From assembly GCF_963921235.1 (NCBI RefSeq), contig NC_086108.1:84012001-84076000 (forward strand): 64,000 nucleotides of DNA, in the 5' to 3' direction. A program made the position numbers and the translations under genes. The stretch is from Mobula hypostoma (taxonomy: Eukaryota). The notes under the pieces are model-generated. The model had not been told where the DNA came from. It did not search any database and worked only from the letters and a program-made list of their open reading frames with translations. This document shows positions 9,196-52,036 of the stretch, in pieces (within the stretch, counting starts at the first letter, position 1; each line of letters opens with the position of its first letter).

Positions 9196-9692
9196 CTCCA
9201 TTTCATTCATTGACAAACATTTACTTGCATATCACCTATCCCCATGATCACTCCAGTTTTACTCTATCAGAGACACTCCCCTCCCCTAGACTCCCTAGAA
9301 TATAATAAGATTAAGGTATCTACTTCACAATTCTGATAATGGTCCCTTGGCCTGAAACATTACCTTTTTGTCTCTTCCCATGGAGGTGGTCTGACCTGTT
9401 GAATATTTCCAGCATTTGCTGTTTTAATCCTGCTGAATAGGTCAGGTACTTTCCAATGGACACATCTCCTGATATGTGAATCAAAGTAACTTGGCTGAGA
9501 GCTGAAAGAAATTTGATTAGAACTTAGCAAGGACTGCCATTTTAAACCTGGAAATAAAATGAAGCCTATTTACATAGGGAAAAAAATTGCATGAGGTTTT
9601 GGTAGACTACTTTTAACATTTAAACAAAACTGGTACACTGGTTGAATACCATTTAGTATGCAAGTCAGGAACCCATCTTTCAATTACCTTTA

Positions 9693-9852
9693 CAATAGAC
9701 AATAGACAATAGACAATAGGTGCAGGAGTAGGCCATTCGGCCCTTTGAGCCAGCACTGTGATCATGGCTGATCATCCACAATCAGTATCCAGTTCCTGCC
9801 TTATCCCCATAACCTTTGACTCCGCTATCTTCAAGAGCTCTATCTAACTCTT
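9693..9852 (-). mobile_element. CR1/HER1-type LINE 3' end
   Basis: (caatagа-type) tandem tail caatagacaatagacaatagacaatagg followed by tgcaggagtaggccattcggccc, as in other CR1 3' UTRs here. Confidence 0.7.
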
Positions 9853-10059
9853 TCTTTACCAAGAAAACAAAATTAATTCCTACTCATTCAGAGATGCTTA
9901 GATTGAAACAGTTTGAATTATCACTACCACAATAACAGCATGGTTGTTGTCATAGATAGAGTTTTCTTGCCTTGTCTAAAAAAGGTCATTTTGTAATTTT
10001 AACCATTCTTCATATTGGTAAGGCAGCTTGGGAACCCCTCACCAGATGTTATCCTGTTA

Positions 10060-12857
10060 TAAATTTTTATTCATTAAAGTTTATTTTTATTTTCTGCCAT
10101 TTTGTTGTAGAACTACAATGGATGGCTGATCAGTAAGACCATTCAGCGGCAAGGGAGTGGAACAATAGGTCAAGGTACAGTATGCTGGTCCCAATACCAG
10201 TTGTTAAATAAAGTCATTTATGATGACAATTCCCTCTGCGAAGAATTAACATAATGAGTACTCGAGAGTGAATGACAGAAGAACTGTTAAGACACTGTGT
10301 AACCAGGCACCTAGGGTTTGTCAGCACTGGAAAAGATATGCTAACTGTGCTTTTTCTCTGAAGATATGCTTGCAACCAGTCACTGGTGAAAAAGTTGGTG
10401 CCATGGGAGCAATGATAGACAGATGCATTGCTTTCCTCCTGAAGCAGTGATTTCTTACTCTGAAAATGATTTTAGTGATAACTTTAAAATACTTAAATTA
10501 TGTGAGCATGCACAGGTATTCACAGGACAGCAGTAAGAATGATATCCACATTAAGGCCATGATACTCGACAGTTTGAATCCTTGTAGCTGGATGATTTCG
10601 TAGCAGCTTCAAGCCCAGACCAACAGAAGTTTTGAATGCAAGGAAGTGTTCGGGAAATAAAAGCTAGAAATAAATATTTTTTTAAAAAATTGATGCTATA
10701 CAAGTTTCAAAATACAGAAAAAAAAGGTACAGCAGTTATGAAATAATAAAATCAGGTACTTTTGAGCTTCATTTTCAGCTGTATATGTTCTGTTTGGTTT
10801 ATATTTCGTCCAAATGATCAACAGCACATTCCCACATTCTTCCTCTATGTTTGGTCTGTTTACAGTTTATATTATCAGTCTGAGGAGCAAACTGATTACA
10901 TAAACGGAAAGCTCCAATTCTATTTTTATACACTTTCAGATTTCACGGCCTCTTCAAATTAACGTGAAACATGCTAACCGGATATCTGGATGGCATGAAC
11001 CAATGAGAAAGGTCAGTTCACACATTAAAGAATTTAATCGCAGTAAACAATATAGAGAATAATGACCTGGAAATATGATCGATATCAGTGTAACAAATAA
11101 AATGGAGAAAATGATAACAATATTATTTAGATTATACATAGTCCACAAACTGGGAGCTGCACTACTCTGCTAGTTTTGTTTGAAATTGGAAGTTTTTTTA
11201 TCAAAGAATTTGCTCCCAATTCTGGCTTTGTGTGACTCCTTTCCTAAAATGAATCATAGTTACCTAAAGTAGGTTAATTTTGTCATAGTTGTGACACAAC
11301 AGCTTACTTACTTTTAATGGATACAATAAATGTAGCCATTCTTAGTGCTTCATATGAATCAAATGACAATTCTTTAATGAAGTCATAATGGATTGCATCA
11401 GATAGGCATGTATGTCTACACTGATAGAAGAGTGGGTGTTGAGAACACTTAACACAAGATTTACCAAATAGCCTCCTTTGAAAGATCCTGGTAGTAGGAG
11501 GATGAAAGGTAAGAAAGGTATGCCAAGGACAGGTTTATACAAGTGGATTTAGTCTTCATTTCAAATAGTTATCTTATTTTCAATTTGAACAAATAAGGGG
11601 GAAAAATTAAGGAAAAATATAGTTGACAGGAGTGAAATAGGGTGCAGGTTAACTACTAAATATTTAAGAATAGTTTCTGATAGAGTGATAACCTAACAAT
11701 AATTTATCTAATGTTTCAATCACATGGCTGACAACCCTCAAGTCTAACACAGAAGATTTGATGATTTGACAACAGTATCATCCGTCAGTGTGTTCTGACC
11801 TACAATCACCGTACCGTGTTTTTTGCACAATACATAGAAAGGTGGGAGGAAGATGCAAGGCTGAAAATTACCTAGGTGGTGCATCTGTGTGCAAAAAAAA
11901 ACAAAATTAATTTTGGACAGTTGAATGTAGATTTAAGCAATAGGTGTGCCTTATGAACAGCTAGAGAGCAAGTGTTTTTTTTTCCAACTAGCTATTGTAA
12001 ACTGGGTATCCAAATTAGTTTCTGTTCTAAACCCTTCTAAAAGAGTATCAATTACATGTCAAAACTGGCAAAGCAAATCAACAAGCTGGAAACATGAACC
12101 TCTAAATGTATTGCTAAAACATTTGTCACATTAGTACTTGAACAAACAAAGATTTCTGTTCAGCATTTGCCTTGAGCCCTCCACTCTGATCATTGCACAC
12201 ACTAGTGATAGCAGCTCTCAAAAGCACTGACACAGCAAAATTTTACCAGTAATACACAATCTTCTGCTCTTGAAATCAATAAGTTGATCATACTTAAGTG
12301 CTTTCACAGCATCTTTTCTCTACTGACACACAAAAAAAAAACATTTTTAAAATATCCTCTACCCCCAAAAGGAATAGCAGCAAATAATCAACAGTCTGGG
12401 ACGGAACCACTAGTCTCATGGATTTTGGGGCAGGGAGAGGAAATATTAAATTAAAATGTTAACACAATGTAAAAGTGTTTGTCCATACAACTTCTGAAAA
12501 TCTTTACATTCAAGCTATAAAAAGAGAAATACCTCAACAATCCTGTTGCTTTTTTTTCTCCAGAGGTAATTATGGCACATTGATCAGTATCTTTCTTTTC
12601 TAATTGCACACTTAGGTGGAGCATTGAATTGTTTCTGCACAAAATTTCAGCACGTCCCACCAACCCCCTCTCCCCGCCCCCTCAATATAGTGTTGATGCA
12701 AGATGACAGGTTTTATATAGAGATGTGTAGTCTCCCCTGTAGTTTGGTAAAGCTTTATCCTCATATTCAGCTGAGTTTTTCTGAAGTCCACAGGATGTTC
12801 TTCTTCATGCTTGCTTTTTCTTCCCCAAATTTATTTTGGGATGGAAACAACGTTGCC
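10060..12857 (-). other. ST3GAL3: Probable ST3GAL3 3' UTR (end uncertain)
   Basis: Repeat-poor AT-rich stretch after the stop codon. Minus-strand AATAAA occurs at 12830-12835 and as a cluster at about 10066-10091. Confidence 0.35.
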
Positions 12858-12947
12858 TCAAATCCCAGCTGTCAAATCTGTAATCACTTGTCCTTTCACC
12901 AATTTCCTAAGGAATTCTTTCTCCTTTCCAATATTATGAGTCCAAGA
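12858..12947 (-). CDS. ST3GAL3: ST3GAL3 last coding exon (sialylmotif VS plus stop)
   Basis: Minus strand reads tttcttttcAG|TCT TGG ACT CAT AAT ATT GGA AAG GAG...GGG ATT TGA, i.e. SWTHNIGKEKEFLRKLVKGQVITDLTAGI*. Human C-terminus as recalled: SWTHNIQREKEFLRKLVKARVITDLSSGI*. It joins in phase 0 to the 44958-45104 exon. Not in the ORF track. Confidence 0.95.
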   Translation of the reverse strand, partial: SWTHNIGKEKEFLRKLVKGQVITDLTAGI

Positions 12948-13344
12948 CTGAAAAGAAATTATTCAAAGAGCATCAAAAATTAATAATCACATTTAAGGCA
13001 ACAAATATTTTCAAAATATATCTTATAGCCTGGTCAAATTCTGATAAACACGTGGATATCCTTCTAGTTGGAACCAAAGATTTTCTTTAAATACACATCT
13101 TTATCCAAAAGTCAAATATATCTTTTATTAACTAAGCACAAAATGTGAAGTTCCTGAACTGTGCATGAATAGACAGTTAGAATGAACAAACAAAGATGCT
13201 AGAAGAACTCAGTGGGTTGGGCAGCATCATTGGAGAGAAATGGGCTGTTGATGCTTAGGATTGAGACCTATTTCCAGGTAAAATTAACATAGCTTTTACT
13301 ATAATTATTAAGCATTAAAATATGAAGAATTTTGGAATATAATT

Positions 13345-14155
13345 CTCTGCACTACTCATTTTATACTTACAACTGTGTGGCTAAGCACAACTCCAATGCC
13401 ATATCCAAGTTTGCTGACATTGCTGTTATAGGCAAGACCAAAGAGCTGATTATTGACTTCAGGAGACAGAAACCAGAGGTCCATAAAGCAGACCTCATTG
13501 GAGGATCAGAGGTGGAGGGGGTCGGCCACTTTAAATACCTCAGTGTTATTATTTTGGAGGACCCATCTTGGGCCCAGCACATAAGTGCAATCACGAATAA
13601 AGCACGGCTGCACCTCTACTTCCTTAGGAGTTTGCGAAGATTTAGCATTACATCTAAAACTTTAACGAACTTCTAAAGATCTGTTGTGGAGAGTATATTG
13701 ACTGGCTGCATCACAGCCTGGTATGGAAACACCAGTGCCCTTAAATGGAAAATCCTACAAAAAATAGTAGGTACGGCCCAGTCCATCACGGGTAAAACCC
13801 TTCCTACCGTACAGCACATCAAAACAAAGCCTCAGGACTTACACCACCAAGTTCAGGAACAATTATTACCCTTCAACCATCCGGCTCTTGTAAGAAAGGG
13901 GAGAATTTCACTCAACCTCACTTCCCCGATCTTTGAAATGCTCCCACAACCTATGGACTCACTTTCAAAGACTCTTCACCTCATGTTCTTGATATTTATT
14001 GTAAATTTACTTATTATTATTTCTTTCTTTTTGTATTTGCCCTGTTTGTTGTATTTTTCACACTGGTTGAATGCCCAAGTTGGTGCAATCTTTCATTGAT
14101 TCACTTTTGGGTTGTATATAATGTACATTGATAATAAATTTACTTTGAAATTTGA
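13345..14155 (+). mobile_element. Rex1/Babar-type LINE 3' fragment
   Basis: ORFs 13332-13676 and 13686-14099 contain KFAD, KTKELIIDFRR, ARLHLYFLRSLRRF and ESILTGCITAWYGN. Closely similar to 52037-53248. Confidence 0.85.
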
Positions 14156-14444
14156 ATATTTCTAATTACTATGTATTTGTTATGAGTTTTAAAAAATTGA
14201 ACATAAATACCTGTGGAGTAATGAAACTGAATTTCCAAAACTAAACTTTGATTTTTTTTAAATTGGTTTGAATATAAGCTCCAAAACAACTTCAATTTGA
14301 AGACTAGTTACAGTATATTGCAATGAAGCATCCTAAAGTGCTTTACAGAAATATTAGGTTAGATAACACATTTTTAAGGTAGATATTAAGTTTGGAGACG
14401 TAGACCTATATAAGTGTAAATTGTTATAAGTGTTGCTATTGATA

Positions 14445-15165
14445 TAAGATAGAGTCATGGTGCACTACAGCATAGAAACAGGCCTTTCAGCCCATCTAGT
14501 TTGTACTGAACTGTTATTATGCTTCGTCCCATCGACTATCCCCGGACAATAGCTCTCCATACTTTCCTATCTATATACTTAATCAAACATCCTTTAAATG
14601 TTGTCATCGAACCCACATTCATCACTTCTACTGGCAACTCGTTCTACATTCAACCACCCTCTGAGTGAACAAGTTCCCCTCAGGTTCCCCTTATGATTTT
14701 ATCAGCTCTATCAAATCTTTTCTCATTCTCCAATGCTCCACGAAATAAAGTCCTAACATATTCAACCTTTCCCCATAACTCAAAATCCCTATACATATTC
14801 TCAGTAACCTTACAATCTTAATATCTTTCTAAGCAAGTGATCAGAACTGCACACAGTACTCACCATCAGAACTGCGCACAGTACTCACCATCAGAACTGC
14901 GCACAGTACTCACCATCAGAACTGCGCACAGTACTCACCATCAGAACTGCGCACAGTACTCACCATCAGAACTGCGCACAGTACTCACCATCAGAACTGC
15001 GCACAGTACTCACCATCAGAACTGCGCACAGTACTCACCATCAGAACTGCGCACAGTACTCACCAGCATCTTATGCAACTTTATCAGAGCTTGCCAACTC
15101 CTATACTCAATACTCTGATTTATAAAAGCCAAAAGTTCTCTTTATGGCCCTATCTACCTGTGATG
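14445..15165 (-). mobile_element. CR1/HER1-type LINE 3' fragment hosting a minisatellite
   Basis: Similar to the young copy at 36937-37454 (cactacagcatagaaacaggcc..., aaataaagtcctaac..., cagaactgcacacagtac). Confidence 0.75.
14840..15064. repeat. Minisatellite, 9 x 25 bp (atcagaactgcgcacagtactcacc)
   Basis: Units 2-9 are identical; unit 1 differs at one base (gcacac). Confidence 0.97.
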
Positions 15166-15169
15166 CTGG

Positions 15170-15735
15170 TTCCTCGAGGTTGTTACAGCCAATGGTGGTA
15201 ATGGGGACGAGCTCCCACTACCTATTAAAAGCTCCCAATGGTGTGCGCCTCAAACAGTCTCTGACAACCAAGTCCAGCTCCTGGCCTTCATGTGTGGCTT
15301 AGCTACTCAGCTTACGGGAACCATTTCCACTGACGGGAAAAGGGGCAATGGCCAGTTACTGGCGCCTTAAAGCCAGTTGCTTAGGGCAGATGGAACTCGT
15401 CAGCTGTGGTTGACAACACATCTAGGCGAAGGAAAACTCTGATCTCAAACCTCCGCTGGCTTGTGGCTATATGCGCTCATGGGGAAGGCTTCAGGAGTAA
15501 ACTCCGAGGGAAGACTCCAGAGCTGGAGTCCCTGAGGTGGTCCTACGTTCAGTTCAGTGCTGACTGGCAACTCCTGCAATGCTTCTTATACCAAACTGTA
15601 TCGGTTTCTGCCGTTCCTTTGGGTTCATCAAATGCGTGGAGACAGTGAGCTTGCTCTCCATATCGTACTGCCCGGGCTTGCATATGGATGCAATATCCAT
15701 GGTCAACTCTGATCAGCGGAGGCCCTCACCTCACT
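15170..15735 (+). mobile_element. RTE-related non-autonomous element (5' UTR-like)
   Basis: Shares ctctgacaaccaagtccagctcctggcc with the reverse complements of 26940-27075 and 33275-33712. Confidence 0.65.
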
Positions 15736-15990
15736 TGTGATGCCACTTTTTAAGGAATTATGGATCTGTATTTCTAGATCCCTTTCTTCTACCACAATCC
15801 TTAGTGCCATACCATTCACTGTGTACGTCCTACCTTGGTTTGTCCTCTTAAAGTGAAGCACCTCACACTTGTCTGCATTAAATTCCAACTCCCATTTTCC
15901 AGTCCATTTTTCCAACTGGTCCAGATCCTGCAGCTAAGCTTTGAAAGCCTTCCTTGCTGTTCACCACACCTCCAATCTTGGTGCCATCGT
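15736..15990 (-). mobile_element. CR1-type LINE RT fragment
   Basis: ORF 15703-15915 reads EKWTGKWELEFNADKCEVLHF..EERDLEIQIHNSLK. Confidence 0.8.
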
Positions 15991-28639: not shown

Positions 28640-29160
28640 TAAAAGGCGAATATAAAAGGAGGAGAATCCAATGTTGACAAAGATTTGTACAGAATGACTT
28701 AAAATGACAAAAATATCAAATTATTAAAGCTTAGGATTTAATATATGCAGACATTAGGAAATAAAATACATTAGGAACAATAACTTGTTTACCAATGTAA
28801 TATCCTGTTGGATCCAACAGGTTAATTCTTAAATTAGACTGTTCAACTATTATTTTCTTTGCCGTTTAACAAATAATTGTCTAATTGTATTTTATATAAT
28901 TACTTATATACATTATGCTTCCTAGTGGCCACAGTCGGTATGCGCAGCTGTTCAATGAGTTCCCGAGTGGTTATATTGGTATAATTCTGGAAAACTCTGG
29001 AAGCTTCTTTGTACTGCATTATTTGAATAAGTGCTTTCTCATTGGTTAACTCTTATCTACATATTTGAATGGAATTTTTTCCTTACTTATGGCTATGAAA
29101 TACTTGACTACAAAGCAGCACCACCTTAGTTCTTTTGTCTCTCTTTGTTTAGCAGATCTA

Positions 29161-30794
29161 CAGTTGAAGTCAGAAGTTTACATACACCTTAGCCAAATAC
29201 ATTTAAACTCAGTTTTTCACAATTCCTGAGATTTAATCCTAGAAAACATTCCCTGCCTTAGGTCAGTTAGGATCACTACTTTATTTTAAGAATGTGAAAT
29301 GTCAGAATAATAGCAGAGAGAATGATTTATTTCAGCTTTTATTCATTTCATCACTTTCCCAGTGGGTCAGAAGTTTACATACACTTTGTTAGTATTTGGC
29401 AGCATTGCCTTTAAATTGTTTTACTTGGGTCAAACGCTTTGGATGGCCTTCCACAAGCTTCTCACAGTAAGTTGCTGGAATTTTGTTCCATTCCTCCAAA
29501 CAGAACAAGTGTAACTGAGTCAGGTTTGTAGGCCACCTTGCTTGCACACACTTTTTCAGTTCTGCCCACAAATTTTTCTATCGGACTGAGGTCAGAAAAT
29601 TATGTCAAGTCTGTTTCATCCTTGGGAGCAATTTCCAAACGCCTGAAGGTACCACGTTCATCTGTACAAACAATAATATGCAAGTATAAACACCATGGGA
29701 CCTTGCAGCTGTCACACTGCTCAGGAAGGAGACGCAGTCTGTCTCCTAGAGATGAATGTACTGTGGTACGAAAAGTGCAAATCAATCCCAGAACAACAGC
29801 AAAGGACCTTGTGAAGATGCTGGAGGAAACAGGTAGACAAGTATCTATATCCACAGTAAAATGACTATATCAACATAACCTGAACGGCTGCTCAGCAAGG
29901 AAGAAGCCACTGCTCCAAAACCACCATAAAAAAGCCAGACTGCAGTTTGCAAGTGCACATGGGGACAAAGATCTTACTTTTTGGAGAAATGTCCTCTGGT
30001 CTGATGAAACAAAAATTGAACTGTTTGGCCATAATGACCATTGTTATGTTTGGACGAAAAAGGGTGAGGCTTGCAAGCTGAAGAACACCATCCCAACCGT
30101 GAAGCGTGGGGGTGGCAGCATCATGTTGTGGGGGCTTTGCTGCAGAAGGGACTGGGTGCACTACACAAAATAGATGGCATCATGAGGAAGGAAAATTATG
30201 TGGAATATATTGAAGCAACATTTCAAGACATCAGCCAGGAAGTTAAAGCTCGGTCGCAAATGGGTCTTCCAAATGGACAATGGACAAGCATACCTCTAAA
30301 ATTGTGGCAAAATTGCTTAAAGACAACAAAGTAAAGGTATTGGAGTGGCCATCAGAAAGCCCTGACCTCAATCTGATAGAAAATTTGTGGGCATAACTGA
30401 AAAAGCATGTGCGAGCAAGGAGGCCTACAAACCTGACCCAGTTACACCAGTCTGTCTGGAGGAATGGAACAAAATTTCAGCAACTTACTGTGAGAAGCTT
30501 GTGGAAGGCCATCCAAAACATTTGACCCAAGTTAAACAATTTAAAGGCAATGCTACCAAATACTAACAAAGTGTATGTAAACTTCTGACCCACTGGGAAA
30601 GTGATGAAAGGAATAAAAGCTGAAATAAATCATTCTCTCTGCTATTATTCTGACATTTCACATTCTTAAAATAAAGTAGTGATCCTAACTGACCTAAGAC
30701 AGGGAATGTTTTCTAGGATTAAATCTCAGGAATTGTGAAAAACTGAGTTTAAATGTATTTGGCTAAGGTGTATGTAAACTTCTGACTTCAACTG
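29161..30794 (+). mobile_element. Tc1/mariner DNA transposon, Sleeping Beauty (salmonid Tc1)-like, defective transposase
   Basis: TA|cagttgaagtcagaagtttacatacacctta ... acttctgacttcaactg|TA, with an inner direct repeat at about 29358-29388. Transposase remnants at 29606-30566: SSLGAISKRLKVPRSSVQTI, VLWSDETKIELFGHND, WPS.SPDLN.IENLW, ..KQFKGNATKY*, with stops and frameshifts. Confidence 0.95.
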
Positions 30795-32159
30795 TATATC
30801 ACTGTTTTTATTTCAATTTTTCTTTGCTTAATAAAACAATCAATTAATTTTACAATTAATCAATGCTTAATAGAACAACCATGAAAAGCTCTGTGCCTTT
30901 TTCCTGACTTCTGAAAGAACTTTGGCATAAAATATCTGAATCCAACAATCAACAGTAATATATGCATTAATGCAAATGAAGTCATTTAAACTGAGAGAAA
31001 CACAGATCAGCCTTAAAGGGCACTGAAGATATGGATCTCAGTTTAATTCAAAAGGGTTATGGTTTGTTGAGATGCGGGTCTTGTACAATTTTTAATTCTT
31101 ATTAAATTTCATCCCTTGTATGCATTCTCGAGCCACAGATGTCAGAGAGATGAGAGATTTCATTCATGGCACTGGTCATATGACACTGGTGCAAAAGGCA
31201 AAACTCAGATTACCAGATTCCGTAGTTCCATTAGTTCTCATTTCTAATTTTTTTCAATATTTAGAGTAATAAAGGAAGCAGATAATTAAAGTAAAATTGA
31301 TCTCTGTTTAACATAATTATAAGAGGGTGTCTAAATAACTTTTCAAATAACATCTGGGACTCCAAACTGGAACACATCTGACCAGCTATATTATTATAGA
31401 GAAAGAAAGCAAGCAAGAAGAGAAATAAAAAGAAACAACACACACTTATTAGTGACTTGTATGACCTCAGGATATCCTGAAATGCTTGCTGGTCAGTAAG
31501 GGATTATTTAAATATGGTTACTGTTTTCACAGCCGGTGTACCCACCAATAGCAACAATATAATTTTTATGTATGCTCCTCTGGAATATTTCTTTACCTAA
31601 GTGACAGATGTGTCTTCCACTACAATAGTTATTCAACTGCTAAAATAATTTATCCTGGACATAATACAAGGTGCATTACAAACATTGTTTTTTCCCTGTC
31701 TACCCGGAAGAAAAGAAAGTCAAAGGAATTAAGTTCTAAGTTTCTAAGATAGTGGTGCTCATTATCGACTTGAAGGAAGATCAGCAGAAACTTCTGCTCC
31801 TCAGATATTATCCATGCTGATAACAACTAGACCTTAAATTTAGCATGTCATTCAAAAGGTGATATATCCAATCTTCCAACACTCCCCTTTACTACACTAA
31901 AGTAAGAATCGTGCAATTGAAGCAAAACTAACACCAGATTTTCAGTGGGAAAGGATAGGGTCAAAAATGTATTTTTGATACTAATACTTACGTTGAACTG
32001 TACGGTTACAGTTTTTCAAAAAGGATGCTAAAATAGTTTCAATTGATTTATAACTTCATTTATATTTTCTTCCTCTCCTTTTGGAAGTCTGTACAAGCCC
32101 GTTCTATGCGTAGGTTAAATAGGAGTGCATTTCTCTCTTTGCTACTTCTATCAAAGCTG

Positions 32160-35164: not shown

Positions 35165-36465
35165 AGAGAATTGAGGAGTATCCTTTTAGAATGGAGATGA
35201 GGAGGAACTTCTAGAGAATGGTGTATCTGTGAAATTGATTGTTGCAGGCAGCTGTGGAGGGCCAGTCTGTATATATATTTAAGGCAGAAGTTGATAGATT
35301 CTTGATTGGTCAGGGCACGAAGGGATATGGGGAGCAGGCTCAATGGGCCAAAGAGCCTAATTCTGCTCCTACGGCTAATTGTCTTAATGATTTTATAAAG
35401 GGGCCCAACTGTAATATGACTTTCTAGCATGGATAGTCATAGACTAGGCATAAAGAAGCCCTTGTCAGCATGACTGCCAGTGACCAGTACAGTTCTTTCT
35501 GCAAGGGTCAGTGTTTGGACCACAGTTTTTCACTTTATACATTCATGATCTGGATGAAGGAACTGATGGCTTTATGGCCAAGTCTGCAGACAATACCAAG
35601 TAGGTGGAGCAATATGCAGAGTTGCAGAAGCAGACAGTCTGCAGAGGGACTGGAACAGGTTGGGAGACTGGGTAAACAAGCGGTAAATGGAATGCAACAT
35701 AGGGAAGTGTGTGATTCTGCATTTTGATATAGAATAAAGATGTAGGCTATTTTCTAACGGGAGCGAATACTCAGAAATCAGAAGTGCAAAGGGACTTGGG
35801 AATCCATGATTTCAACTTGCAGGATGAGTTAGTCACATTGAAGGCAAATACACTATCAGCATTAATTTAAGAGGCCTAGAAAGTAAAAAGCATATGTGGT
35901 CTGGTGAGGCTTTATAAGGCACTGGTCAGGCACAGTATTTGGAATACTGTGAGCAATTTTGGGCCCCCTATCTAAGGACAGATGTGCTGGCCCTGTAAAG
36001 ATCAAGAGGAGGTGAACAAGAATGATCCTAGGAATTAAAGACATAATGAGTGAGGAGCATTTAATGGCTTTGGTCTTGTAGTCAATAAAGGATGAGAGGA
36101 GATCTCCTTGAGACCTAACAGTTACTGAAAGTCCTGGATAGAGTGTACATGGAGACAATGTCTCCATTCATAGGAATGTTTAAGATTCAAGAGCACAGAC
36201 TCGGAATTAAGGGACCTCCCTTTAAAACTGAAATGAAGAGGAACTTCTCCAGACAGAGGTGGGGGAATCTGGAATTCACTGTCACAGAGAGCTGTGGATG
36301 CTGAAACTCTGGGTGCATTTAAGGCAGAAGTTGATAGATGCTTGATTGGAAAGGGTTACTGGGAGAAACTGGGAGAATGGGGTTGGAAAGAATACCAGCC
36401 GTAATTGAATGGGAGGGCAAACCGGACGTGGCAAATGGCCTAATTCTGCACCTACATCTGATGGT
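35165..36465 (+). mobile_element. Degenerate CR1-type LINE fragments (35165-35380 and 35480-36465)
   Basis: RT-like segments and the 3' UTR motif ttaaggcagaagttgatagat, present twice. Confidence 0.7.
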
Positions 36466-36936
36466 TTCAATTCTTGTACCAATGATGTGGCATTTTAATA
36501 CCAGATTGAAATTCTGCTACAGATGGAAAGCTATGCATTTTTAATATTTCCTTACTGGGTATAATCACTACTATCCATAAGTTAACAGAAACATAGGAGT
36601 ACTATCGTCAGGAGTGTGGTGACTCAAGGATAAAGATATATAGAAGGGATACATAATAAAGGTGACTTTGGACATGCTACTCACATCCTAAAAATAGTTA
36701 AGAAATTAGCTCCTTTGCTCTTGTTTTTTTTTTCATTCTTCAACCCCCCTTCACAGTGCCTTTAGCTCTTACAAATAAATATCAAGACCCAAATTAAACT
36801 GAAATATTCTTGTCAAATTATACGTGGAGTGCTACCAGTTGTATATAAAGTAAAGCCTACAATTAGCTGAGCATTCTTAGATTATTTTGGGCACATTTGT
36901 TCTGGGAATACAAATGATTGATCAAATGGACAAACC

Positions 36937-37454
36937 ATAGAACACTACAGCACAGAAAACAGGCCATTCGGCCCTTCTAGTCTGTGCCGAAACTTTATTC
37001 TGCTAGTCCCATTGACCTGCATCCAGTCCATAACCCTCTAGACCTCTCCCATCCATGTATCTATCCAATTTATTCTTAAAACTTAAGAGTGAGCCCGCAT
37101 TTTCCACGTCAGATGGCAGCTCGTTCCACACTCCCAACACTCTCTGAGTGAAGAAGTTCCCCCTAAACCGTTCCCCTTTCACCCTAAAGCCACGACCTCT
37201 CATATGTATCTCTCCAAATCTAAGTGGAAAGAGCCTACTCGCATTTACTTTGTCTATACCCCTTATAATTTTGTAAACCTCTATCAAATCTCCCCTCATT
37301 CTTCTACGCTCCAAGGAATAAAGTCCTAATCTGTTCAATCTTTCCCTGTAACTCAACTCCTGAAGACCTGGCAACATCCTAGTAAATCTTCTCTGCACTC
37401 TTTCAATCTTACTGATATCCTTCCTATAGTTAGGTGACCAGAACTGCACACAAT
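36937..37454 (-). mobile_element. Young 5'-truncated CR1/HER1-type LINE
   Basis: Uninterrupted 148-aa ORF2 C-terminus (QFWSPNYRKDISKIERVQRRFTRML..YSLERRRMRGDLIEVYKI..FFTQRV..WNELP) plus 3' UTR. Confidence 0.92.
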
Positions 37455-37521
37455 AAGGGAGGAGGGAGAAACAGGGAGAAGGGTTCTGAAGTAGCAGGAA
37501 GAAGCAATGGTGAGTTCATGT

Positions 37522-37706
37522 AAAAGAGACCTAACACACGAACGAACATGCAATATCAAAAGAGAGCTAACAAACGAACAAACATGCAATATCAAAAGAG
37601 AGCTAACACATGAACAAATATGCAATATCAAAAGACAGCTAACACACGAACGAACATGCAATATCAAAAGAGAGCTAACACACGAACAAACATGCAATAT
37701 CAAAAG
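37522..37706. repeat. Minisatellite, about 5 x 36 bp (aaaagagagctaacacacgaacgaacatgcaatatc)
   Basis: Five slightly diverged units; these account for the 12-aa periodic ORFs on both strands. Confidence 0.95.
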
Positions 37707-40494
37707 CGGCTATAATTCACACAGGAGTAATGGATGGAATGTTGTAATAAAGAAGCTTCAGACACAGAGATAATTCCCACAGAGCTATAAATGTAACAGG
37801 AGACAGCTATCTTAAAACTGTGGCAAAATCTCAGAATAGGCAATGTAAAATTAAATGCACACTGAGGAGGTAATATTTTATGCAGTCACTAAAGAGGAAA
37901 ACCTATGCCAAGTTGGTTGCATAACAGTCCACAGAGAGTGCCATGGTTATACAAAAATGTGTAATGGCTTGGGAATGAAACTATTTTCCTGCAAGCATAA
38001 GTTTTTAATTAGTTCATTTGTGTTAAATAAACAATCTATTTACTGAATCCTTCAACCAATTGATGCTTTACATTGCTAAAAGTTTTATCGAACCAGGGTT
38101 TCTGATAATCGGAACAATCTATATACCTATTGTGAAAATTAACTTACATTTTAGTTGACATTTGTCTAGAAAATTGTGATTCCAGTCATTTAAATCAAAT
38201 AAGAAATGTGTTTTTGATGAGTTCCACAGCTGCAAGTATGTATTGATTTGGAGATTTTCATAATATAGCATGTTTAGCTATATTTTGAATGTGATATTAT
38301 GTTCATCTGGAAAAGAGATTTCAAAGAAAAATCTAGGAGTTAAATGAAGATCTTCAAATGGTACTGGAATTTTTGCCACTCTAGTGCTTGATCAGAGGGA
38401 TCGTTTTTAACTCTCTGCTTGAGGGAGAACATATAATACACTGATGCCAAACCTGACACCAAAAGGCAGCAGCAACAAAATTTGCTCTGTCAGTAACAAA
38501 CACTTTGTCTTTCAAAATTAAAAAGATTATATTTCTTTAGAATAAGTTTCTCCAAGTTGCAACTGACAGATATTTCATTGTGTATTTTTATGGACTGTAT
38601 GTTCTATCTACCAAGCCTTTGTACCTTTTACCTTAAATCTACTTGTTTAAAAATAGAATTAATTTCTCTTAACTGTCTTACTGATTTATTAGATTTATAG
38701 AATGACTGATTTTCTCATTTCTAATTTATTACTTTTGGCACTCCAAATAATTATCTCACTACCCACATTTTACATATGAACAATAGCAAGGTACTTTAAA
38801 AATAATCGACAATCACCTTCTATAACTAAATTACTAAAAATGTAGCCAATTGCATTCTATAAGACTGACCAATCACATTCCACAAATAAAAATAATATAG
38901 CCAACATGCCATTTTGTGGATGACTGAAGCTTTAACGCAGCATTCCTTCCAATGCCTGATGGAGTACTGGATCAACCTTGCACTCAAGAAAAAGAAAAAT
39001 GTACTGGTAGCAGTACACTGTGAACCTTGTCTTAATTTTAATCTTCAGCATAGCATGAAACTACATTAGAACTATTTCTGGGAACCATGGGATAAATTAC
39101 CTAGATATGATTATTATAAAAAAAATCACTCCAAAGAGTCTCATGAGAACTACTTAATTTTTAACCCAGAAAATGACCAATATTTTGGGAACTTCTGAAT
39201 AATTCACTTCGCAAACTAACTTTAAAAATGATCACCATTTAATAAATAAAATTGTATTTATTTTCTTTGATGTGGTCTCAAGTGATTGACTAAATGAGGA
39301 TTGGTAAAACCACAGCTCACAGTGTACAGTTACAGCCTTGCAGTTTCTGACCTTCAGGGAGCCTAAGAGTGATAGTCGCAGTAACTGTAATATACTCTCT
39401 GAATGAGGTACATCAAAGGATTTCAAAGGTAGAGTTGAAACTAAAAAGAATGACAATTTAGCATTCTCTAAGCACCTGTACGCTCTATTGGGTTAGAGAG
39501 GTTCATCATACAAGTCTGTTTTGTTTTTATGTTACTGTCTTTGATTTAAGATTACAGTCATGTAAGCCGTTCAAAGAAAGAATACTATGAAACTTCTAAA
39601 CCCTTTCAAGTGGTTGTAGCCCCCTTTTCTGGATCTTTTAGACATTGGTATTCAACTCATCAACAACAGTAGGTTTTTAAAATTTTTTTTAAATCCTGAA
39701 TTCTATAGAACTAACGAGTACTTTTTCTTTAGAGATATTGGATATTAGATTTAGAGGAAAGCAGACTTTTTCTCTTCTAAGATACTGCATTTATAAATAG
39801 CCAAGCTAACAGCTACATTATTTGTTTGTATTATAAATACCTTACAATTTCCCTGGTTTGAGACGGTGAGAAAATAGGTTTATGCATCCATCAACCTCTC
39901 TGTCACAATTGAGGGAAGAACATAATATTGTGCATATATCACTATATAAGGTAACTTGAGAAATCACACCAACTAAAATAGAGTATAAAGTATGCAGCAT
40001 AAATTGATCCGACAAGGATTTTTTTATTGCACGAATTCAAGTATTCACTGTTTAGTTTCTTATACTGGAAAAAGGAGTCACTTGCTAATGCAAGCTATTC
40101 TCCATAGAAATCTGAAAATGTGTATGGGCTATCTTATGCACTTTTATTTTTTGTGTGTGTTTATTATTATTATTATCATTTTTTACTTTATCTTTTGTGT
40201 TTTTTTGTACTGCAATGGATCCACAGTAACAAGTGTTTCATTCTCCTTACACTGTGTACAGGAAATGACATTAAACAATCTTGAAAAACTGATGTAATAG
40301 CTCTTCATTCTGCTTTTGCACATACATTTTTGGGGGTGGCTGTTGCCTACTAAGAGCGTATCTGCTTCCCTTTGTAATTAAGGGCAGCTTTTATTTGCCG
40401 AAGAGATTACCTAAAAATATTGGTAAAAATTAGTCATGGACAATAATGGGAAGCCACTAATTATTTTGTGTAAATGATAAAATAAATTAGGACA

Positions 40495-44957: not shown

Positions 44958-45104
44958 CTCTTTAATGGCTGACATCTTAACATTCTCATAGTAATGTAGA
45001 GGTGCATTTGGAGCATTCATATCATAGCCAAACCCCGCAACAGCCACTTCATCACAGTTGTGTAAAGCCATTGTTATTGCGACTGTGCCTAGTGTTGGTA
45101 TATT
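44958..45104 (-). CDS. ST3GAL3: ST3GAL3 (beta-galactoside alpha-2,3-sialyltransferase 3), penultimate coding exon
   Basis: 147-nt exon encoding NIPTLGTVAITMALHNCDEVAVAGFGYDMNAPNAPLHYYENVKMSAIKE. It contains sialylmotif S (PTLG..A...AL..CDEV..AGF) and motif III (HYYE) and closely matches the recalled human ST3GAL3 sequence. Minus-strand acceptor tttgcAG at 45106-45105; donor GTATGA starting at 44957. Confidence 0.96.
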
Positions 45105-45949: not shown

Positions 45950-46560
45950 CACTGCTCTGTTAACAAGGATGTTGACATGGTCCCACATGCTAAGTTAGTC
46001 CAGAACTACGTGTCAGATCACATAGGATCAAGGGTGAGCTTGCCAGTTGGATATACAATTGGCTTAGGTGGTAGTGCAGGGTTGTCTTTCCAGTTGCAGG
46101 TATTTTCTAGATTGTAATCAGTGGAGTGCCTCAGAGATCGGTGCTGGGTCCACTGTGGTTCATCATCTACATTAATATGGCCTTATAGATGGCCTCTTAC
46201 AGAGAGATGACCTGATAGCTAGATAGATAGATAGAAAATAATAAGGAGCAGAAATAAGGAGAGAATACAGAATCTTTTTTTTTCCCAGAATAAGGCAGTC
46301 AAGGTTCCCCTACAGATTTAAGGTGAGAGGGAAAAGATTTGTAGGGGTCCTCAGCAGATAGTGGGTATATGGAATGAGCTGCCAAAGGAAGTGGTAGTAG
46401 TAGATAAAAAATACAATGTTTAAAAGAGATTTGGACAGGTACATGGATAAGAAAGGCTTGGAGGAATAAGGGCCAAAAACAGGCAAAAGCTCAGATAAGC
46501 AACGTGGTCAGCAAGGACGGGCTGGACCAAAGTGCTAGTTTCCATGCTGCATAACTATGA
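45950..46560 (+). mobile_element. Degenerate CR1-type LINE fragments
   Basis: agtggagtgcctcagagatcggtgctgggtccactg (SGVPQ.SVLGPL) and a CR1 3' UTR ending ctgcataactatgac. Confidence 0.7.
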
Positions 46561-47591
46561 CACAAGCTGAAAAACTGAGACGAGAAGCTGCAGTAAATCT
46601 CATATTGCCTTTATTGTTGCCTCCCAGTCAAGTCCCTTGCTACAGAGTGAATAATCCAGGGTTCCATATAGGAGTAGCACTGAGAAAGTGCTACATTGTT
46701 GGAGGTGCCCGTTTTCAGAAGAAGATGACAGTTTGTTCTAGAATATAAAAAAAATACTATTTTATTATTGAAACAAAATCTGTGTGGGTGGGGGTGGGGA
46801 TAGTATCTTTCTCATATATTAGCTATCATGAATCAATTGACCAACTTCTTTCAGATAGATTAACTGGTCATATGTGCAAGGATGGACTGTTTCAAAGAGC
46901 AGCATGGTAGTTATTGTTGCGTATTTAATAATATTTGAGCAATATTGTAAATATATTGTTTGATAAATTATTCTTTGTTGTTTACATAATGCATTGTGAG
47001 TTATGTGAATTGAATACATCATGACACTACTGCGTGATAGGTGTGCGCCTCACTTAAAGTAAACACGAAGTTAGACTCAATTTCGGGCTCCAGTGTCCTC
47101 CTTTTAATTAGGTTAATGTTCTGAAGTTACAAAACTTAACAGTGGTGACAGGGTATTTTTAAAACAAACCAGAGATGGTTAACGACCCGCTGAAGTGCAG
47201 CGCGGAATGGTCAAGTTAAATGAAAAGGAAACGCAGCATGTGCTCTTCGGAAGGAAAACACGATCGAGTTTTAAAAAATGCAGAAAATGGAAGAATTCAC
47301 AGGTTCATAAACAGTGAGTACCAGATCATAATAATCATAAAAAAAAGCAGAAATGGATGCCTACTTTGGAAAGATTGATGCATTTGATTCCACAACAGAT
47401 AACTGGATATTATATAAAGAGCAAATTGAGCACTATTTTAAAGCAAATGGAATAGCCAATGAAAAATGAGTACCTGTTTTGCTGAGTGTATCTGATTTAG
47501 AGCATACAGTTTGCTTTGAAGTTTGACTGCTCCAACCAAACTAGCAGAAATTAACTTTACTGATATCGTGAAAGTAATTTAGTAATATTTA

Positions 47592-48397
47592 CGAGAGATC
47601 ATCCACTTTGGAAAAAAAGTGAAAAAGCAGATTTTTTTAATATGGTAAAAATTGCAAAATGCTGCAGTGCAGAGGACTTGGGAGTGCTTGTGCACGAATC
47701 ACAAAAGGTTAGTTTGCAGGTGCAGCAGGCTGTCAAGAAGGCAAATGGAATATTGGCCTTCATTGCTTCGAGGGATTGAATTTAGGAGCAGGGAGGTTAT
47801 GCTGCATCTCTACAGGGTACTGGTGACACCGCACCTGGAGTACTGTATACAGTTCTGGTCTCCTTACTTGAAGATGGATGTACTGGCTTTGGAGGTGTTA
47901 CAGAGGAGGTTCACCAGGTTGATTCCAGAGATGAGGGGGTTAGACTATGAGGAGAGATTGAGTCGCCTGGGACTGTACTCAGTGGAATTCAGAAGAATAA
48001 GAGGTGATCCTATAGAAACACCTAAAATTATGAAAGGGATAGATAAGATCGAGGCAGGAAAGTTGTTTCCACTGATAGGTGAGACTAGAATTAGGGGACA
48101 TAGCCTCAAGATTTGGGGGAGTAGATTTAGGACAGAAATGAGGAGGAACTAGTTTTCCCAGAGTGGTGAATCTGTGGAATTCTATGCCCAATGAAGCAGT
48201 AGAGGCTAACTCAGTAAATATACTTAAGACAAGGTTGGATAGATTTTTTGCATAGTAGGGGAAATTAAGGGCTATGGGGAAAAGGCAGGTAGGTGGAGAT
48301 GAGTCCATGGCCAGATCAGCCATGATCTTACTGAACAGTGGAGCAGGCTCGACAGGCCAAATGGCCGACTTCTGCTCCTATTTCTTACGTTCTTATG
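47592..48397 (+). mobile_element. CR1-type LINE nested in Gypsy gag
   Basis: ORF 47652-48152 reads LYRVLVTPHLEYCIQFWSPYL..QRRFTRLIP; 3' tail tttcttacgttcttatg; gag sequence resumes afterwards. Confidence 0.9.
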
Positions 48398-49386
48398 AAC
48401 ATTTAGATTGTAGAATGTTTTAGGAATCAAAAGGAAGGAGAGCCTATTTCAGTGTGTGTAGATGAATTGAAGAGATTTTCTGAGCATTATCAGTTCAATG
48501 ATGCACTGACAGATTGTTTAGTTGTGGAACCTTACAAAGAAGCATTCAAAAACAGCTCCCAACTGAAGCACAACTTACATTTAAAACAGCAGTTGAAATA
48601 GCTATATCAATGGAAGCAGCAGGGTTGCATTCAGGAATGAAAGTGAGCATGAACAAAATTGCAATGTTTAAACAGAAACCAGCCTGGCCAAACAAACTGT
48701 ATTACCATTGTGGCAGAGGCTCACATACACCAGACCAATGCAGATTTAAAGGGGAAACTTGCAGAAAATGCAACATAGTCAGTCATGTACAAAGACTATG
48801 TCGAGCAGACAAAAATAAATGGACTGCATAGGGAAGAGAAAAAGCTAAAAAGTTAAGTTGCAAATAATCTGCAAAAATCTAATAAGGATGAGAGTGACAC
48901 AGGACTGAGTACTCTTGAGATTGACAATGTGAAAACTAACAATAGACAAGCAATATGGTTTATACCAGAAGTGAATGGCAAATTAATTGAAAGGAAATTG
49001 GACACTGACTTGGCTGTTTCAGTCATTCCACAAAATGAGTTTGAATGGCATTTCAAAGACACTAAACTGAAAACTGCAGATATCCAGCTAAGAACATATA
49101 CTGGAGAAAAGATAACTCCTGTGGGAATGACATTTGTAACAGAGAAATATGACAACCAACAAGCCACATTGGGCTTGTGTGTGGTAAAAAAACAGGAGGG
49201 CCAGTATTGTGGGGATGTGAGTGGCTGAGACAACAACAACTTGATTGGCGATCTATTCACAATTTGCATGCCACTTCCCCCATAATACAGTCAACTGGAA
49301 GTGAATTAAGAAAGGTACTGGATGGTGCCACAACTGTCTCCATGCTATACACCGTTAACCGTTGCAAAACAGAGGGCAAAGAGGAA

Positions 49387-49772
49387 TTGGTGCCAACCTC
49401 TGTGCCTCTGGTTGGAAAGCGTATCGGACCAAGGAAGAGGAAGCGTGAAAGTGACAAAAGCAGTGATCCGATCACTACAGTCTTTGTAGGTAACATATCC
49501 GAGAAAGTCAGTGATGTGTTAATTAAGCAGTTACTTGCAAAATGTGGCTTGGTTTTAAGCTAAAGGAGAGTTCAAGGAGCTTCATGAAAGTTCCAAGCAT
49601 TCAGCTTGTGTTAGTGTGTACATGTTCATCTGAAGATGTTGTGGATGAGGAAACCAAGGGAGAAATCAGATCGTAAACGGAACAACAGAGGGATTAATAA
49701 GAGAATACTCCAGTGAACTCCCAAAATCAAGATGCACAAACTAGAAGAAGAAAAAGGAAGGAGAAAAAAGAT
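49387..49772 (+). pseudogene. RBM25: Processed RBM25 (RNA-binding motif protein 25) fragment inside the Gypsy element
   Basis: Reads LVPTSVPLVGKRIGPRK..DPITTVFVGNISEKVSDVLIKQLLAKCGLVLS*RRVQGAS*KFQAFSLC*. After a gap it continues EDVVDEETK/RNQIVNGTTEGLIREYSSEL/QNQDAQTRRRKRKEKKD. Recalled human RBM25: VLVPTVSMVGKHLGARK..GPTTTVFVGNISEKASDMLIRQLLAKCGLVLSWKRVQGASGKLQAFGFCE...ALDEETKRRDQMIKGAIEVLIREYSSEL..HPRKKKKEKKED. Confidence 0.92.
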
Positions 49773-50393
49773 ACGCACAGCTGTCAAAACCACTTCCTGC
49801 ATTCCCAGATTCAACTCCTACAACCACCATGGAGGAGGCCGCAGAATCTGAGATTGTTTTCACAGCCACAAGTCTCACCTGCCACCCAGAGTGACCTCTC
49901 TTGTCAGCAAAGACGTTATTCCACAACAGTAAGAAGGTCTCCGCAGCAATTAAATCTTTAGGTCTGAATGAGATAATTAAAAAATTTACTATAATTTACT
50001 ATACTGTGGATATCTGTATAGTAGTTGTATTATATAGTAGACCGTGTATATAGTTGAGATGCATTCTATTTTGAGTTGGAGTTTATAAATATGCAAGGAG
50101 GAGTGCTCATAGATTTAATATTTCAACAATATTTACTGAAATTGTAAATATATTGTTTGATTAAGCATTCTTTGTTGTGTACATAATGCATTGCAGGTTA
50201 TATATAAGAGTACATGAGTTGTATATGTCATGCTCTTACCATGTGATACATGGACGTCTGCGTAAGTAATCACAAAGTTAGACTCACATTTTGGACGCCT
50301 ATGTCTTTCTTTTAAATAGTTACAAAACATTACAGTTATCCTCAAGTGAATGATGTGGCCAATATTTATTGCACAATCAACAGCACAAAGATA

Positions 50394-50815
50394 CCAAATA
50401 AACTCTTCTCGGGCTTCTAGCTAGGTACAGGTATCGATTTTAACCAACGTTTCAATGACAAACTCTGCCATCTTCATCAGGGATGATGCCTAGGCATGTC
50501 TAGTCCAGTGGTATATATACCCCCGTCGTCCATCCCTGCTGTTTGGTTAGTCCTTAACCATCAGGTTTCTGCTGTCCCACCTTGTTTACAATTCAATTCC
50601 AGTTCTTTCTTAGAGCAAGACCTTCAGCTTTGTTAAAATTCTTTCCCTCTAGTTTTATTTCAATGGCTTCCTTCACCAAGTGGTCCCAAAACCATCGTCC
50701 CTCATGAAGATGGCAGTTTGTCATCGAAACATTGGTTAAAATTGATACAAGTACCCGACTGGAATAAAGAAAAGAGTTTATTTGTCATATATGCCGGGAA
50801 AGCACGAGATCCTTT
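50394..50815. mobile_element. Penelope-like element remnant with inverted pseudo-LTRs
   Basis: About 95-bp inverted repeats (50395-50488 vs 50693-50784). Minus-strand GIY-YIG C-terminus FWDHLVKEAIEIKLEGKNFNKAEGLALRKNW at about 50598-50690. Flanking 12-bp direct repeat agcacaaagata at 50382-50393 and 50816-50827. Confidence 0.85.
50443..50484 (-). ncRNA. Minimal type I hammerhead ribozyme motif
   Basis: Minus strand reads aucc-CUGAUGA-a-gauggca-gagtt-ugucauu-GAAA-c-GUU-gg: intact CUGANGA and GAAA boxes, a 7-bp stem II, and a short palindromic stem III region (AACGUU). Confidence 0.7.
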
Positions 50816-52036
50816 AGCACAAAGATAGATCAGTTACTTTCATATGGCTATTCGCAGGAGCTAGAACTTGTTCATGGAATCGGAAACACTTTGGGATGAA
50901 TGGAAGCTGTAGAAAATTTTTATTATTTTGTTATTAAGTTCTGTTTTTGGGGCCAAGTTCTATGTTAATGCATTGTAGTTCTAATGTATTACGTGCAATA
51001 ACTGCTACTCAATAAAAACTATATTATCTCAAGGGAACTGCCCATATTCAGCTGTTCTCAGGCAAATAAATTGCATGTATACACAGAACACTGTAAGTCT
51101 AATACAGTATACTAGCAAATCGGCCTTTGCAATCCTACCTTACATATACTTGGTTTTGGAACAGAGTCCACATTTATTTTACTGGAGATTCCCAAAATGG
51201 AGATGAGGAAGAAAAATTTAATTCTGATGAATGCTTTCAGTATTTTGTGTGCTAGTAATTATTTTTTTAATTTTAGTTTTAGTGGATTAATGAGTTTTTA
51301 TTTATTATTTTTGTCACTTCAGAGACATAAAAAGATAAGTTGGAAGTCAAAAATCACGTCATATATGGTCCAATTTAATCTCTTCCATGCCTGGTACACA
51401 GCCACAACCCCCGATGCATTATTCCAATTTTTATTGTACTACTATATCCTATCTCGGGACCAATATATCTTTCTTCTCAGTTGATTAAAAAGAAATAACT
51501 GAGTACAGAGAAAAGTGCTTCAAGTTATTTAATTAACAGAATACTCTCTTCATACTGACAATATCCTTTATCCTTGGGCTGTGGCTAGAAGAACAAACTA
51601 ATCCTACCGGAGAATAGCAAGCCTATTAACTATGAACAAGATTAATTTATAATTAGTATTCTATGCAGTTCTAGAAGTTCAATGTGATGTGCAGAATTAA
51701 TTGTTATCTGAAACCTTTGTAGCTGCATATGATTAACAGGTTTGATATCTTTTTGTAATCACACTCTATTGGTGTCTTATCACTTCTTTCCAAACAGCAA
51801 TACACATATTGATGTGTCTGACAATCCACTGATAACATATACCCAAGGTTCCTGTCATCAATTCTCCAGGATTCTTAAGGATTTGTAGGACTTTTGAATC
51901 TGAAGATATCATCAAATGTAGAGTTACCAAAGAAACATGATTGGAAATAAGTGGCTTAGCTAATTTATCTTTTACTGAAAATCTAAATTATTCCTGGTCT
52001 AAACAGGCTTGGCAGCTAACCTTCAATCTCCTCAAA

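What the first reader, a model, noticed from the sequence alone, without database searches (positions are those of the whole stretch)
46915..50334. Gypsy LTR retrotransposon whose pol core is replaced by a captured RBM25 mRNA fragment
Seen: a complete element with two TG..CA LTRs, a GTTAT TSD, PBS and PPT. Gag and protease run to 49338 and the post-integrase tail resumes at about 49773, but no RT, RNase H or integrase lies between them. The gap holds 386 bp of sense-oriented, intron-less RBM25 coding sequence: the N-half of the RRM plus the DEETK..IREYSSEL..KEKKD segment, with an internal deletion, no poly(A) and no TSD of its own. Known: LTR elements can transduce host mRNA by template switching during reverse transcription. 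Inference: this is a non-autonomous, host-gene-carrying LTR element that may have amplified as a family. Here it sits antisense to ST3GAL3, upstream of the 44958-45104 exon.
Basis: partly seen in the sequence, partly recalled or inferred. Interest (0 to 1): 0.85.

Follow-up and report, generated by a model that had tools for sequence, protein, structure and literature searches.

The report
Retrotransposon family carrying spliced RBM25 piece
This is an old, broken jumping gene whose copying enzymes are replaced by an intron-free piece of the host splicing-factor gene RBM25, joined in reading frame; the hybrid likely arose by a copying error and then likely spread to hundreds of places in the genome, a known kind of gene capture on an unusually large scale.

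Summary
Confirmed, with corrections. 46915-50334 is a decayed Gypsy-type element with two LTRs (78% alike), a GTTAT target-site duplication, gag, protease and the integrase tail, but no RT, RNase H or integrase. In their place lies intron-free RBM25 coding sequence. It starts at about 49327, not 49387, includes a 16-codon segment seen only in shark-type RBM25 records, and continues the pol reading frame.

In three related organisms, summed contig depth on the RBM25 piece is about 140-620 times the single-copy level. Contigs carrying other alleles cross the 5' junction, so the chimera multiplied (at least about ten copies, probably hundreds). The large deletion in the RNA-binding domain has single-copy depth and looks private to this copy. 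This insertion is shared with two other organisms.

The mechanism, template-switch capture followed by trans-mobilisation, is published for animals (Tan 2016). New are the scale, the cartilaginous-fish host and the in-frame joint. Whether the captured domain ever worked is untested. The scan has reported this family ten times before at other places in this genome.

The parts
46910..46914 (.). 5' copy of target-site duplication GTTAT
46915..47141 (+). 5' LTR (TG..CA)
   Evidence: bridged to unique flank in runs X1, X5, X11 (table 8)
47143..47154 (+). degenerate primer-binding site (begins TGG, one base after the LTR); tRNA partner not identified
   Evidence: identity as PBS from position and general knowledge
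47353..47579 (+). gag, 5' part (broken by stops and a frameshift)
   Evidence: tblastn with P0123 residues 1-76
47583..48400 (+). later insertion: 3' fragment of a very high-copy LINE (CR1/L2-like; label recalled) inside gag; boundaries approximate
   Evidence: gap in P0123 match; depth 330,000-520,000 in X1; 53% identical to ORF 37003-37515
48407..48852 (+). gag, 3' part with zinc-knuckle region (broken)
   Evidence: P0123 residues 87-247, P0124
48872..49338 (+). aspartic protease region and pol linker up to the capture point (broken by a frameshift near 49189)
   Evidence: P0123 residues 263-416, 46-54% identity
49327..49338 (+). 5' switch zone: codons A-T-T-V fit RBM25 (P0122 ATTV) and overlap the end of the Gypsy match (P0123 AADV), same frame
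49336..49383 (+). 16-codon RBM25 alternative segment found in 3 of 124 RBM25 hits (two Heptranchias isoforms, one unnamed record)
49384..49611 (+). spliced RBM25 coding sequence with the first 44 of 69 RRM positions; 15-nt deletion near 49437, two stops
49612..49625 (+). join of a 55-codon deletion in RBM25 (P0001 residues 100-154); single-copy depth, so apparently private to this locus
   Evidence: table 3 rows 49621 and 49625
49626..49772 (+). RBM25 segment after the RRM (SSEDVVDEETK to KEKKD), two frameshifts, ending just before an inferred exon end
49773..49961 (+). post-integrase tail of the Gypsy polyprotein
   Evidence: weak match to 3 of 5 polyprotein C-termini
50095..50103 (+). polypurine tract
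50104..50334 (+). 3' LTR (TG..CA)
50335..50339 (.). 3' copy of target-site duplication GTTAT
44958..45104 (-). context: internal exon of a GT29 sialyltransferase gene; the element lies antisense and upstream of it, probably in its intron
   Evidence: no further GT29 exon among 97 minus-strand ORFs above 45150

Best explanation
This is a dead Gypsy-type element in which spliced RBM25 coding sequence stands, in frame, where RT, RNase H and integrase should be; it likely formed when reverse transcriptase switched onto a co-packaged RBM25 mRNA and back, and the hybrid then likely spread as a non-autonomous family. Shown: the anatomy, the missing pol core, the intron-free sense fragment, the in-frame 5' joint, other copies with the same 5' joint, and this insertion shared by three organisms. 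Inferred: two template switches at short similar sequences (one just upstream of the alternative segment, one just before an exon end); retention of LTRs, PBS and PPT let intact relatives supply the enzymes in trans; the founder carried the whole RRM; copy number is in the hundreds. After insertion this copy decayed neutrally, gained a LINE in gag and lost the second half of the RRM. The RBM25 piece is most likely a passenger.
For: The host piece replaces about 2.5 kb of pol instead of interrupting it. It runs without intron across at least two points where RBM25 isoforms vary or read into an intron: GKE|xLVP (P0001 versus P0121, P0273) and KxQ|AF (18 of 119 hits carry an insert there, P0273 diverges there). 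Both Gypsy (A-A-D-V) and RBM25 (A-T-T-V) fit the 5' zone in the same frame. Depth on bins 49420-49721 is 420-617 times the flank bins in X1, X5 and X11; point ratios at 49385 and 49658 are 140-448; dividing by the worst-case contig-overlap factor of 31 leaves 8-18. At 49385, 108-111 contigs per DNA run carry a letter other than the window's. Pieces with non-window letters at 49275 or 49282 are laid through 49354 (X1), 49363 (X5) and 49364 (X11), past the joint. 10 of 47 codons of the conserved RRM stretch are changed, against 9.6-12.1 expected from neutral decay at half the LTR distance. Published cases show the same structure and re-transposition (PMC5131818).
Against: The tool warns that summed depth is not a copy number. 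No paralogous piece across the 3' joint appears in the rows shown (nearest starts at 49780), and most rows were cut from the output. RBM25-bin depth is only about 10-25% of protease-bin depth, so many family members may lack the piece. DNA-level microsimilarity was not measured. A 9-of-10 repeat flanks the piece, with a chance of about 0.8-3%. Both ends lie close to inferred exon edges, which splicing could also explain.
Confidence: 0.75

Rival explanations
1. Read-through and splice capture, as in oncogene transduction by retroviruses: an element sat in sense inside RBM25, a cryptic donor in pol was spliced to the acceptor of the alternative exon, and only the 3' joint was made by a template switch. 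The product then amplified in the same way.
For: The 5' joint lies within 9 nt of the point where the alternative segment begins, and the first clearly RBM25-only codons are those of that segment. The mechanism is recalled from retrovirology, not from a call.
Against: The three codons before the segment (A-T-T) match RBM25 record P0122 exactly but Gypsy P0123 at only one of three, which puts the switch inside the preceding exon. P0123 is a distant relative (about 53% identity), so this is not decisive.
Confidence: 0.13
2. A LINE-made RBM25 retrocopy, primed on an internal A-rich tract, landed in an already deleted Gypsy element and duplicated a 10-nt target; the composite then amplified or stayed single.
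For: A 9-of-10 direct repeat at 49329-49338 and 49776-49785 (similar matches in 47 of 5801 to 45 of 1557 random zones). The 3' end of the piece is A-rich.
Against: The 5' repeat copy encodes T-T-V and continues the RBM25 match, so it reads as host gene sequence and not as target DNA. There is no poly(A), the repeat is not A-rich, and the insertion would have had to hit the exact site of a 2.5-kb pol deletion and land in frame. A single-copy version is excluded by depth and junction-crossing variants.
Confidence: 0.06
3. The captured RRM was functional cargo: it was translated as Gag-protease-RRM and helped the defective RNA to be packaged, exported or protected from splicing, which drove the large amplification.
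For: ORF 49153-49563 runs from the pol linker into RBM25 without a frame change. The RRM-destroying deletion has single-copy depth. Amino-acid decay in this copy needs no changes before insertion.
Against: An in-frame joint arises one time in three by chance. The 3' joint is out of frame with the tail in this copy. No fused protein was among the hits. A short time between capture and insertion explains the decay equally well.
Confidence: 0.15

Closest known systems
LTR-mediated retrocopies of animals (Tan et al. 2016, Genome Res, PMC5131818; parts 1-3 of 8 of the text and passages read; tables and supplements not seen)
   Same: [quoted passage not shown]
   Different: [quoted passage not shown] Here one capture appears to have reached tens to hundreds of copies, in a cartilaginous fish, before the split of three organisms. 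Their 'in frame' refers to the parent protein; here the piece also continues the element's own pol frame.
Gene-fragment-carrying LTR elements of maize, including Bs1 (Baucom et al. 2009, PMC2774510; passages read; Bs1 described in PMC5131818)
   Same: LTR retrotransposons acquire host gene fragments and amplify them.
   Different: 425 elements from at least 189 captures, about two per capture; plant host.
Acutely transforming retroviruses with gag-onc fusions (recalled, no call)
   Same: A replication-defective genome with a spliced host coding sequence fused in frame in place of pol, dependent on a helper.
   Different: No env and no evidence of infection or of selection on the cargo here; the element is fixed and decayed.
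Ty3/Gypsy polyproteins of the K02A2.6-like type (P0123 Metynnis, P0141 Xenopus, P0185)
   Same: Single gag-protease-pol frame, related gag and protease, similar C-terminal tail.
   Different: RT, RNase H and integrase are absent from this element.

Membership tests
Ty3/Gypsy LTR retrotransposon (derivative) | Two TG..CA LTRs with a 4-6 bp TSD | tested here: met
Ty3/Gypsy LTR retrotransposon (derivative) | PBS after the 5' LTR and PPT before the 3' LTR | tested here: inconclusive
   TGG at 47143 and a 9-nt purine tract are in place; both are degenerate and no tRNA match was tested
Ty3/Gypsy LTR retrotransposon (derivative) | Gag and protease homologous to elements with the order PR-RT-RH-IN | tested here: met
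   (P0185, P0231, P0141 show that order)
Autonomous Ty3/Gypsy element | Own RT, RNase H and integrase | tested here: not met
   no tblastn hit for those domains at E<1; filed as a non-autonomous derivative
LTR-mediated retrocopy (Tan 2016) | Host sequence is spliced mRNA | tested here: met
LTR-mediated retrocopy (Tan 2016) | Internal ORFs replaced, not merely interrupted | tested here: met
LTR-mediated retrocopy (Tan 2016) | Microsimilarity at both switch points | tested here: inconclusive
   codon-level overlap at the 5' joint only; no DNA of the uncaptured partner found
LTR-mediated retrocopy (Tan 2016) | No L1 hallmarks (poly(A), own TSD) | tested here: inconclusive
   no poly(A); a 9-of-10 repeat flanks the piece but its 5' copy reads as RBM25
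LTR-mediated retrocopy (Tan 2016) | Re-transposition with shared junctions | tested here: met
   5' joint crossed by variant pieces and high depth in three organisms; 3' joint not shown; flanks of individual chimeric copies not seen
LTR-mediated retrocopy (Tan 2016) | Co-transcription from the LTR | not testable with these tools
   only contigs, no run on record as RNA
LINE-mediated processed pseudogene | 3' poly(A), A-rich TSD, intact 3' end, inserted into a continuous target | tested here: not met
   3'-truncated, no poly(A), flanks are two distant parts of pol

The most novel reading that the evidence does not exclude
A retrotransposon domesticated a host gene: the founder kept the whole RBM25 RRM in frame behind its protease, made a Gag-protease-RRM protein, and the stolen RNA-binding domain helped the enzyme-less element spread to hundreds of copies. 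That would be a retrotransposon counterpart of a transducing retrovirus, with selection on the cargo readable from the many fossil copies.
Probability: 0.15. Interest if true: 0.8.

Novelty: new variant of a known kind. Interest (0 to 1): 0.47.

Why it matters
Known animal cases of LTR capture are mostly young loci with one or a few copies. A family of tens to hundreds of old copies from one capture, shared by several species, lets one test on a tree whether captured host sequence is a passenger or was selected. It also preserves a dated snapshot of an RBM25 splice isoform. In practice such copies will appear as false RBM25 paralogues in cartilaginous-fish annotation, and any transcripts or small RNAs from them could act on the essential parent gene (untested).

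Tried and rejected
No own genome is held, so copies could not be counted or aligned. No RNA holder is listed; X8 is only guessed to be RNA, so nothing is claimed on expression.

A shared-frameshift argument was dropped. At 49658 only 14-19% of DNA depth shows the extra base against 89% in X8, which first looked like a derived family trait. But indels at 47501, 48780 and 49186 also show in only about 3-9% of depth in X1, X5 and X11, so short contigs probably under-call indels.

A search for the uncaptured partner failed: nothing in viral contigs; 25 metagenome loci matched only the 22-nt pattern (1 of 25 gave a blastn hit, limited to the pattern). The word-based search with the protease ORF gave 0 of 94 candidates. 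No fused Gypsy-RBM25 protein was among the 120 listed of 219 hits or the 10 hits; these searches have length limits. Pfam did not recognise the decayed ORFs. The Atlas gave only unnamed clusters for the LINE ORF. No upstream GT29 exon was found among 97 ORFs of 38 aa or more.

Literature: no report of this family seen in listings (15 of 29 listed; 0 papers; 10 of 172 listed). The library lacks most subscription journals, and repeat databases were not searchable, so the family may already be catalogued there. Look-ups of earlier findings by sequence or neighbourhood gave nothing.

Full report
Anatomy. The element spans 46915-50334 on the + strand between two GTTAT copies (chance 0.0017 for a given 5-mer). 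The LTRs (46915-47141 and 50104-50334) both read TG..CA and agree at 162 of 208 aligned positions (K2P 0.265, or 0.209 without the 10 of 25 transitions that fit CpG decay). Their local score is 201 against a maximum of 68 in 300 shuffles. A TGG-starting PBS-like site at 47143 and a purine tract at 50095-50103 are in the expected places but degenerate. A profile search with the protease ORF found 509 relatives at E<=0.001. The best, P0123 (Metynnis), matches gag at 47353-47579 and 48407-48852 and protease plus pol linker at 48872-49338. Full-length relatives carry protease, RT, RNase H and integrase in Gypsy order, and none of the last three domains hits the window. The tail ending at 49961 resembles the C-terminus of 3 of 5 such polyproteins, weakly. 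About 2.5 kb of pol is therefore missing.

Gag is split by about 820 bp (about 47583-48400). This stretch has contig depth of 330,000-520,000 in run X1, and its ORF is 53% identical to another ORF in the window at 37003-37515. It is the 3' end of a high-copy LINE; the CR1/L2 label is recalled, and the Atlas gave only unnamed clusters.

The captured piece. The best database match is an RBM25-like protein of the shark Heptranchias (98 bits; next best 69), which points to a cartilaginous-fish host; 'batoid' was not tested. The match starts earlier than reported. 49327-49611 aligns with P0122 residues 12-115 (69%, E 4e-37), including a segment found in only 3 of 124 RBM25 hits: P0001, P0121 and P0122. 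The window has the short form without the four extra residues, like P0121. Exon edges were inferred from isoform variation. One lies before 'LVP' (P0001 versus P0121; P0273 has another start there). One lies after 'KLQ' (18 of 119 hits carry an insert, and P0273 diverges there). One lies after 'KEKKEE' (P0001 and P0121 end in an unrelated tail, while P0122 and the full-length proteins continue). The window runs through the first two without intron and stops a few bases before the third. P0001 residues 100-154 are deleted, which removes the last 25 of the 69 RRM positions. The piece resumes at 49626 and ends at about 49772, with no poly(A).

The joints. The Gypsy match ends and the RBM25 match begins in the same 12 nt (49327-49338) and the same frame: the window reads A-T-T-V, P0122 A-T-T-V and P0123 A-A-D-V. 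ORF 49153-49563 runs across this joint. That fits a template switch at a short similarity, but DNA-level microsimilarity could not be measured, because no uncaptured partner was found. At the 3' joint the RBM25 frame and the apparent tail frame differ in this copy. Against my reading, a 10-nt repeat with one mismatch sits at 49329-49338 and 49776-49785; random zones give such a match in 0.8-2.9% of cases. Its 5' copy encodes residues that continue the RBM25 match, so I do not take it as a target-site duplication, but it remains unexplained.

Did the chimera multiply? Contigs of 4 of the 24 listed runs were laid on 46400-50900 at 80% likeness. X1 has a 534-nt piece identical to the window flank. 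Single-copy flank bins have depth 26-36 (X1), 49-78 (X5) and 15-20 (X11). The two bins inside RBM25 (49420-49721) have about 13,000, 36,000-39,000 and 9,400-10,000, that is 420-617 times the flank; point ratios at 49385 and 49658 are 140-448. The tool warns that summed depth is no copy number. Overlap of short contigs can inflate it, by my estimate at most 31-fold, which leaves a floor of 8-18 copies; hundreds is the likely range. At 49385, 110, 108 and 111 contigs carry a letter other than the window's. The 'from_end' column measures to the end of the laid piece (checked on record 9). By it, pieces with non-window letters at 49275 or 49282 extend to 49354 (X1), 49363 (X5) and 49364 (X11), 16-26 nt beyond the 5' switch zone. 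In X1, whose flank piece is identical to the window, these are most simply paralogues. No such row was shown for the 3' joint, and most rows were cut from the output. RBM25 depth is about 10-25% of protease-bin depth but within the range of the lowest Gypsy bins (5,900-15,800 in X1), so the chimera is a sizeable part of the family, not necessarily all of it. At 49621 and 49625 depth falls to 23, 46 and 15, the single-copy level, so the RRM deletion looks private to this locus; that other copies keep the whole RRM is inferred.

Age and decay. Pieces in X5 (9 differences in about 524 nt) and X11 (39 differences and 18 gap letters in about 550 nt) bridge flank and 5' LTR by 40-43 nt, so the insertion predates the split of organisms A, B and C. 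The LTR distance is about three times the A-C flank distance. In a 47-residue RRM stretch that is identical in 36 of 124 hits, this copy has 10 changes including two stops. Neutral decay at half the LTR distance predicts 9.6-12.1. This copy is a fossil.

Context. The minus-strand exon at 44958-45104 is a GT29 sialyltransferase exon with splice signals at both ends.

Mechanism and rivals. Best (0.75): template-switch capture of a spliced RBM25 isoform, then trans-mobilisation, with the cargo as passenger. Rivals: a splice-made 5' joint after read-through (0.13); a LINE retrocopy into a pre-deleted element (0.06); and, compatible with either capture route, functional cargo (0.15).

Comparison with what is known. 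Tan et al. [quoted passage not shown] In maize, 425 elements derive from at least 189 captures (PMC2774510, passages). The mechanism is thus known; the scale, the host lineage and the in-frame joint to pol are the differences. No paper on this family appeared in the listings. Ten earlier reports of this scan describe the same chimera at other places in this genome. They agree with my reading, which I had stated before seeing them. They are unchecked notes: I could not examine their loci and did not adopt their copy estimates.

Verdict.

Noticed in passing
window 47583-48400: 3' fragment of a very high-copy LINE inserted in gag in the same orientation; a 6-nt repeat at 47577 and 48401 may mark its edges. 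A piece identical to the window across its 5' edge (47502-47742) is in run X8.
   Followed up: partly
window 49336-49383: A 16-codon RBM25 alternative segment conserved with the shark Heptranchias and absent from 121 of 124 RBM25 hits: apparently a cartilaginous-fish alternative exon or exon extension, preserved in the captured copy.
   Followed up: partly
window 49329-49338 and 49776-49785: 10-nt direct repeat with one mismatch at the two capture joints; chance about 1-3%; unexplained.
   Followed up: partly
window 49437-49512: A joint skipping 74 nt of the RBM25 piece appears in 1-4 contigs in each of the four runs, possibly a deletion subfamily shared across organisms.
   Followed up: no
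window 50386-50793: Repeat with inverted arms (79 nt, 77% complementary) just 3' of the element, high depth and about 500 loose ends at 50397 per DNA run: probably a MITE-like DNA element.
   Followed up: no
window 29155-30800: 441-nt inverted repeats at 95% identity around a transposase-like ORF at 29532-29864: probably a young Tc1-like element (label recalled).
   Followed up: no
window 14840-15068 and 37522-37706: Two short tandem arrays (periods about 50 and 72 nt) seen in the self-comparison.
   Followed up: no
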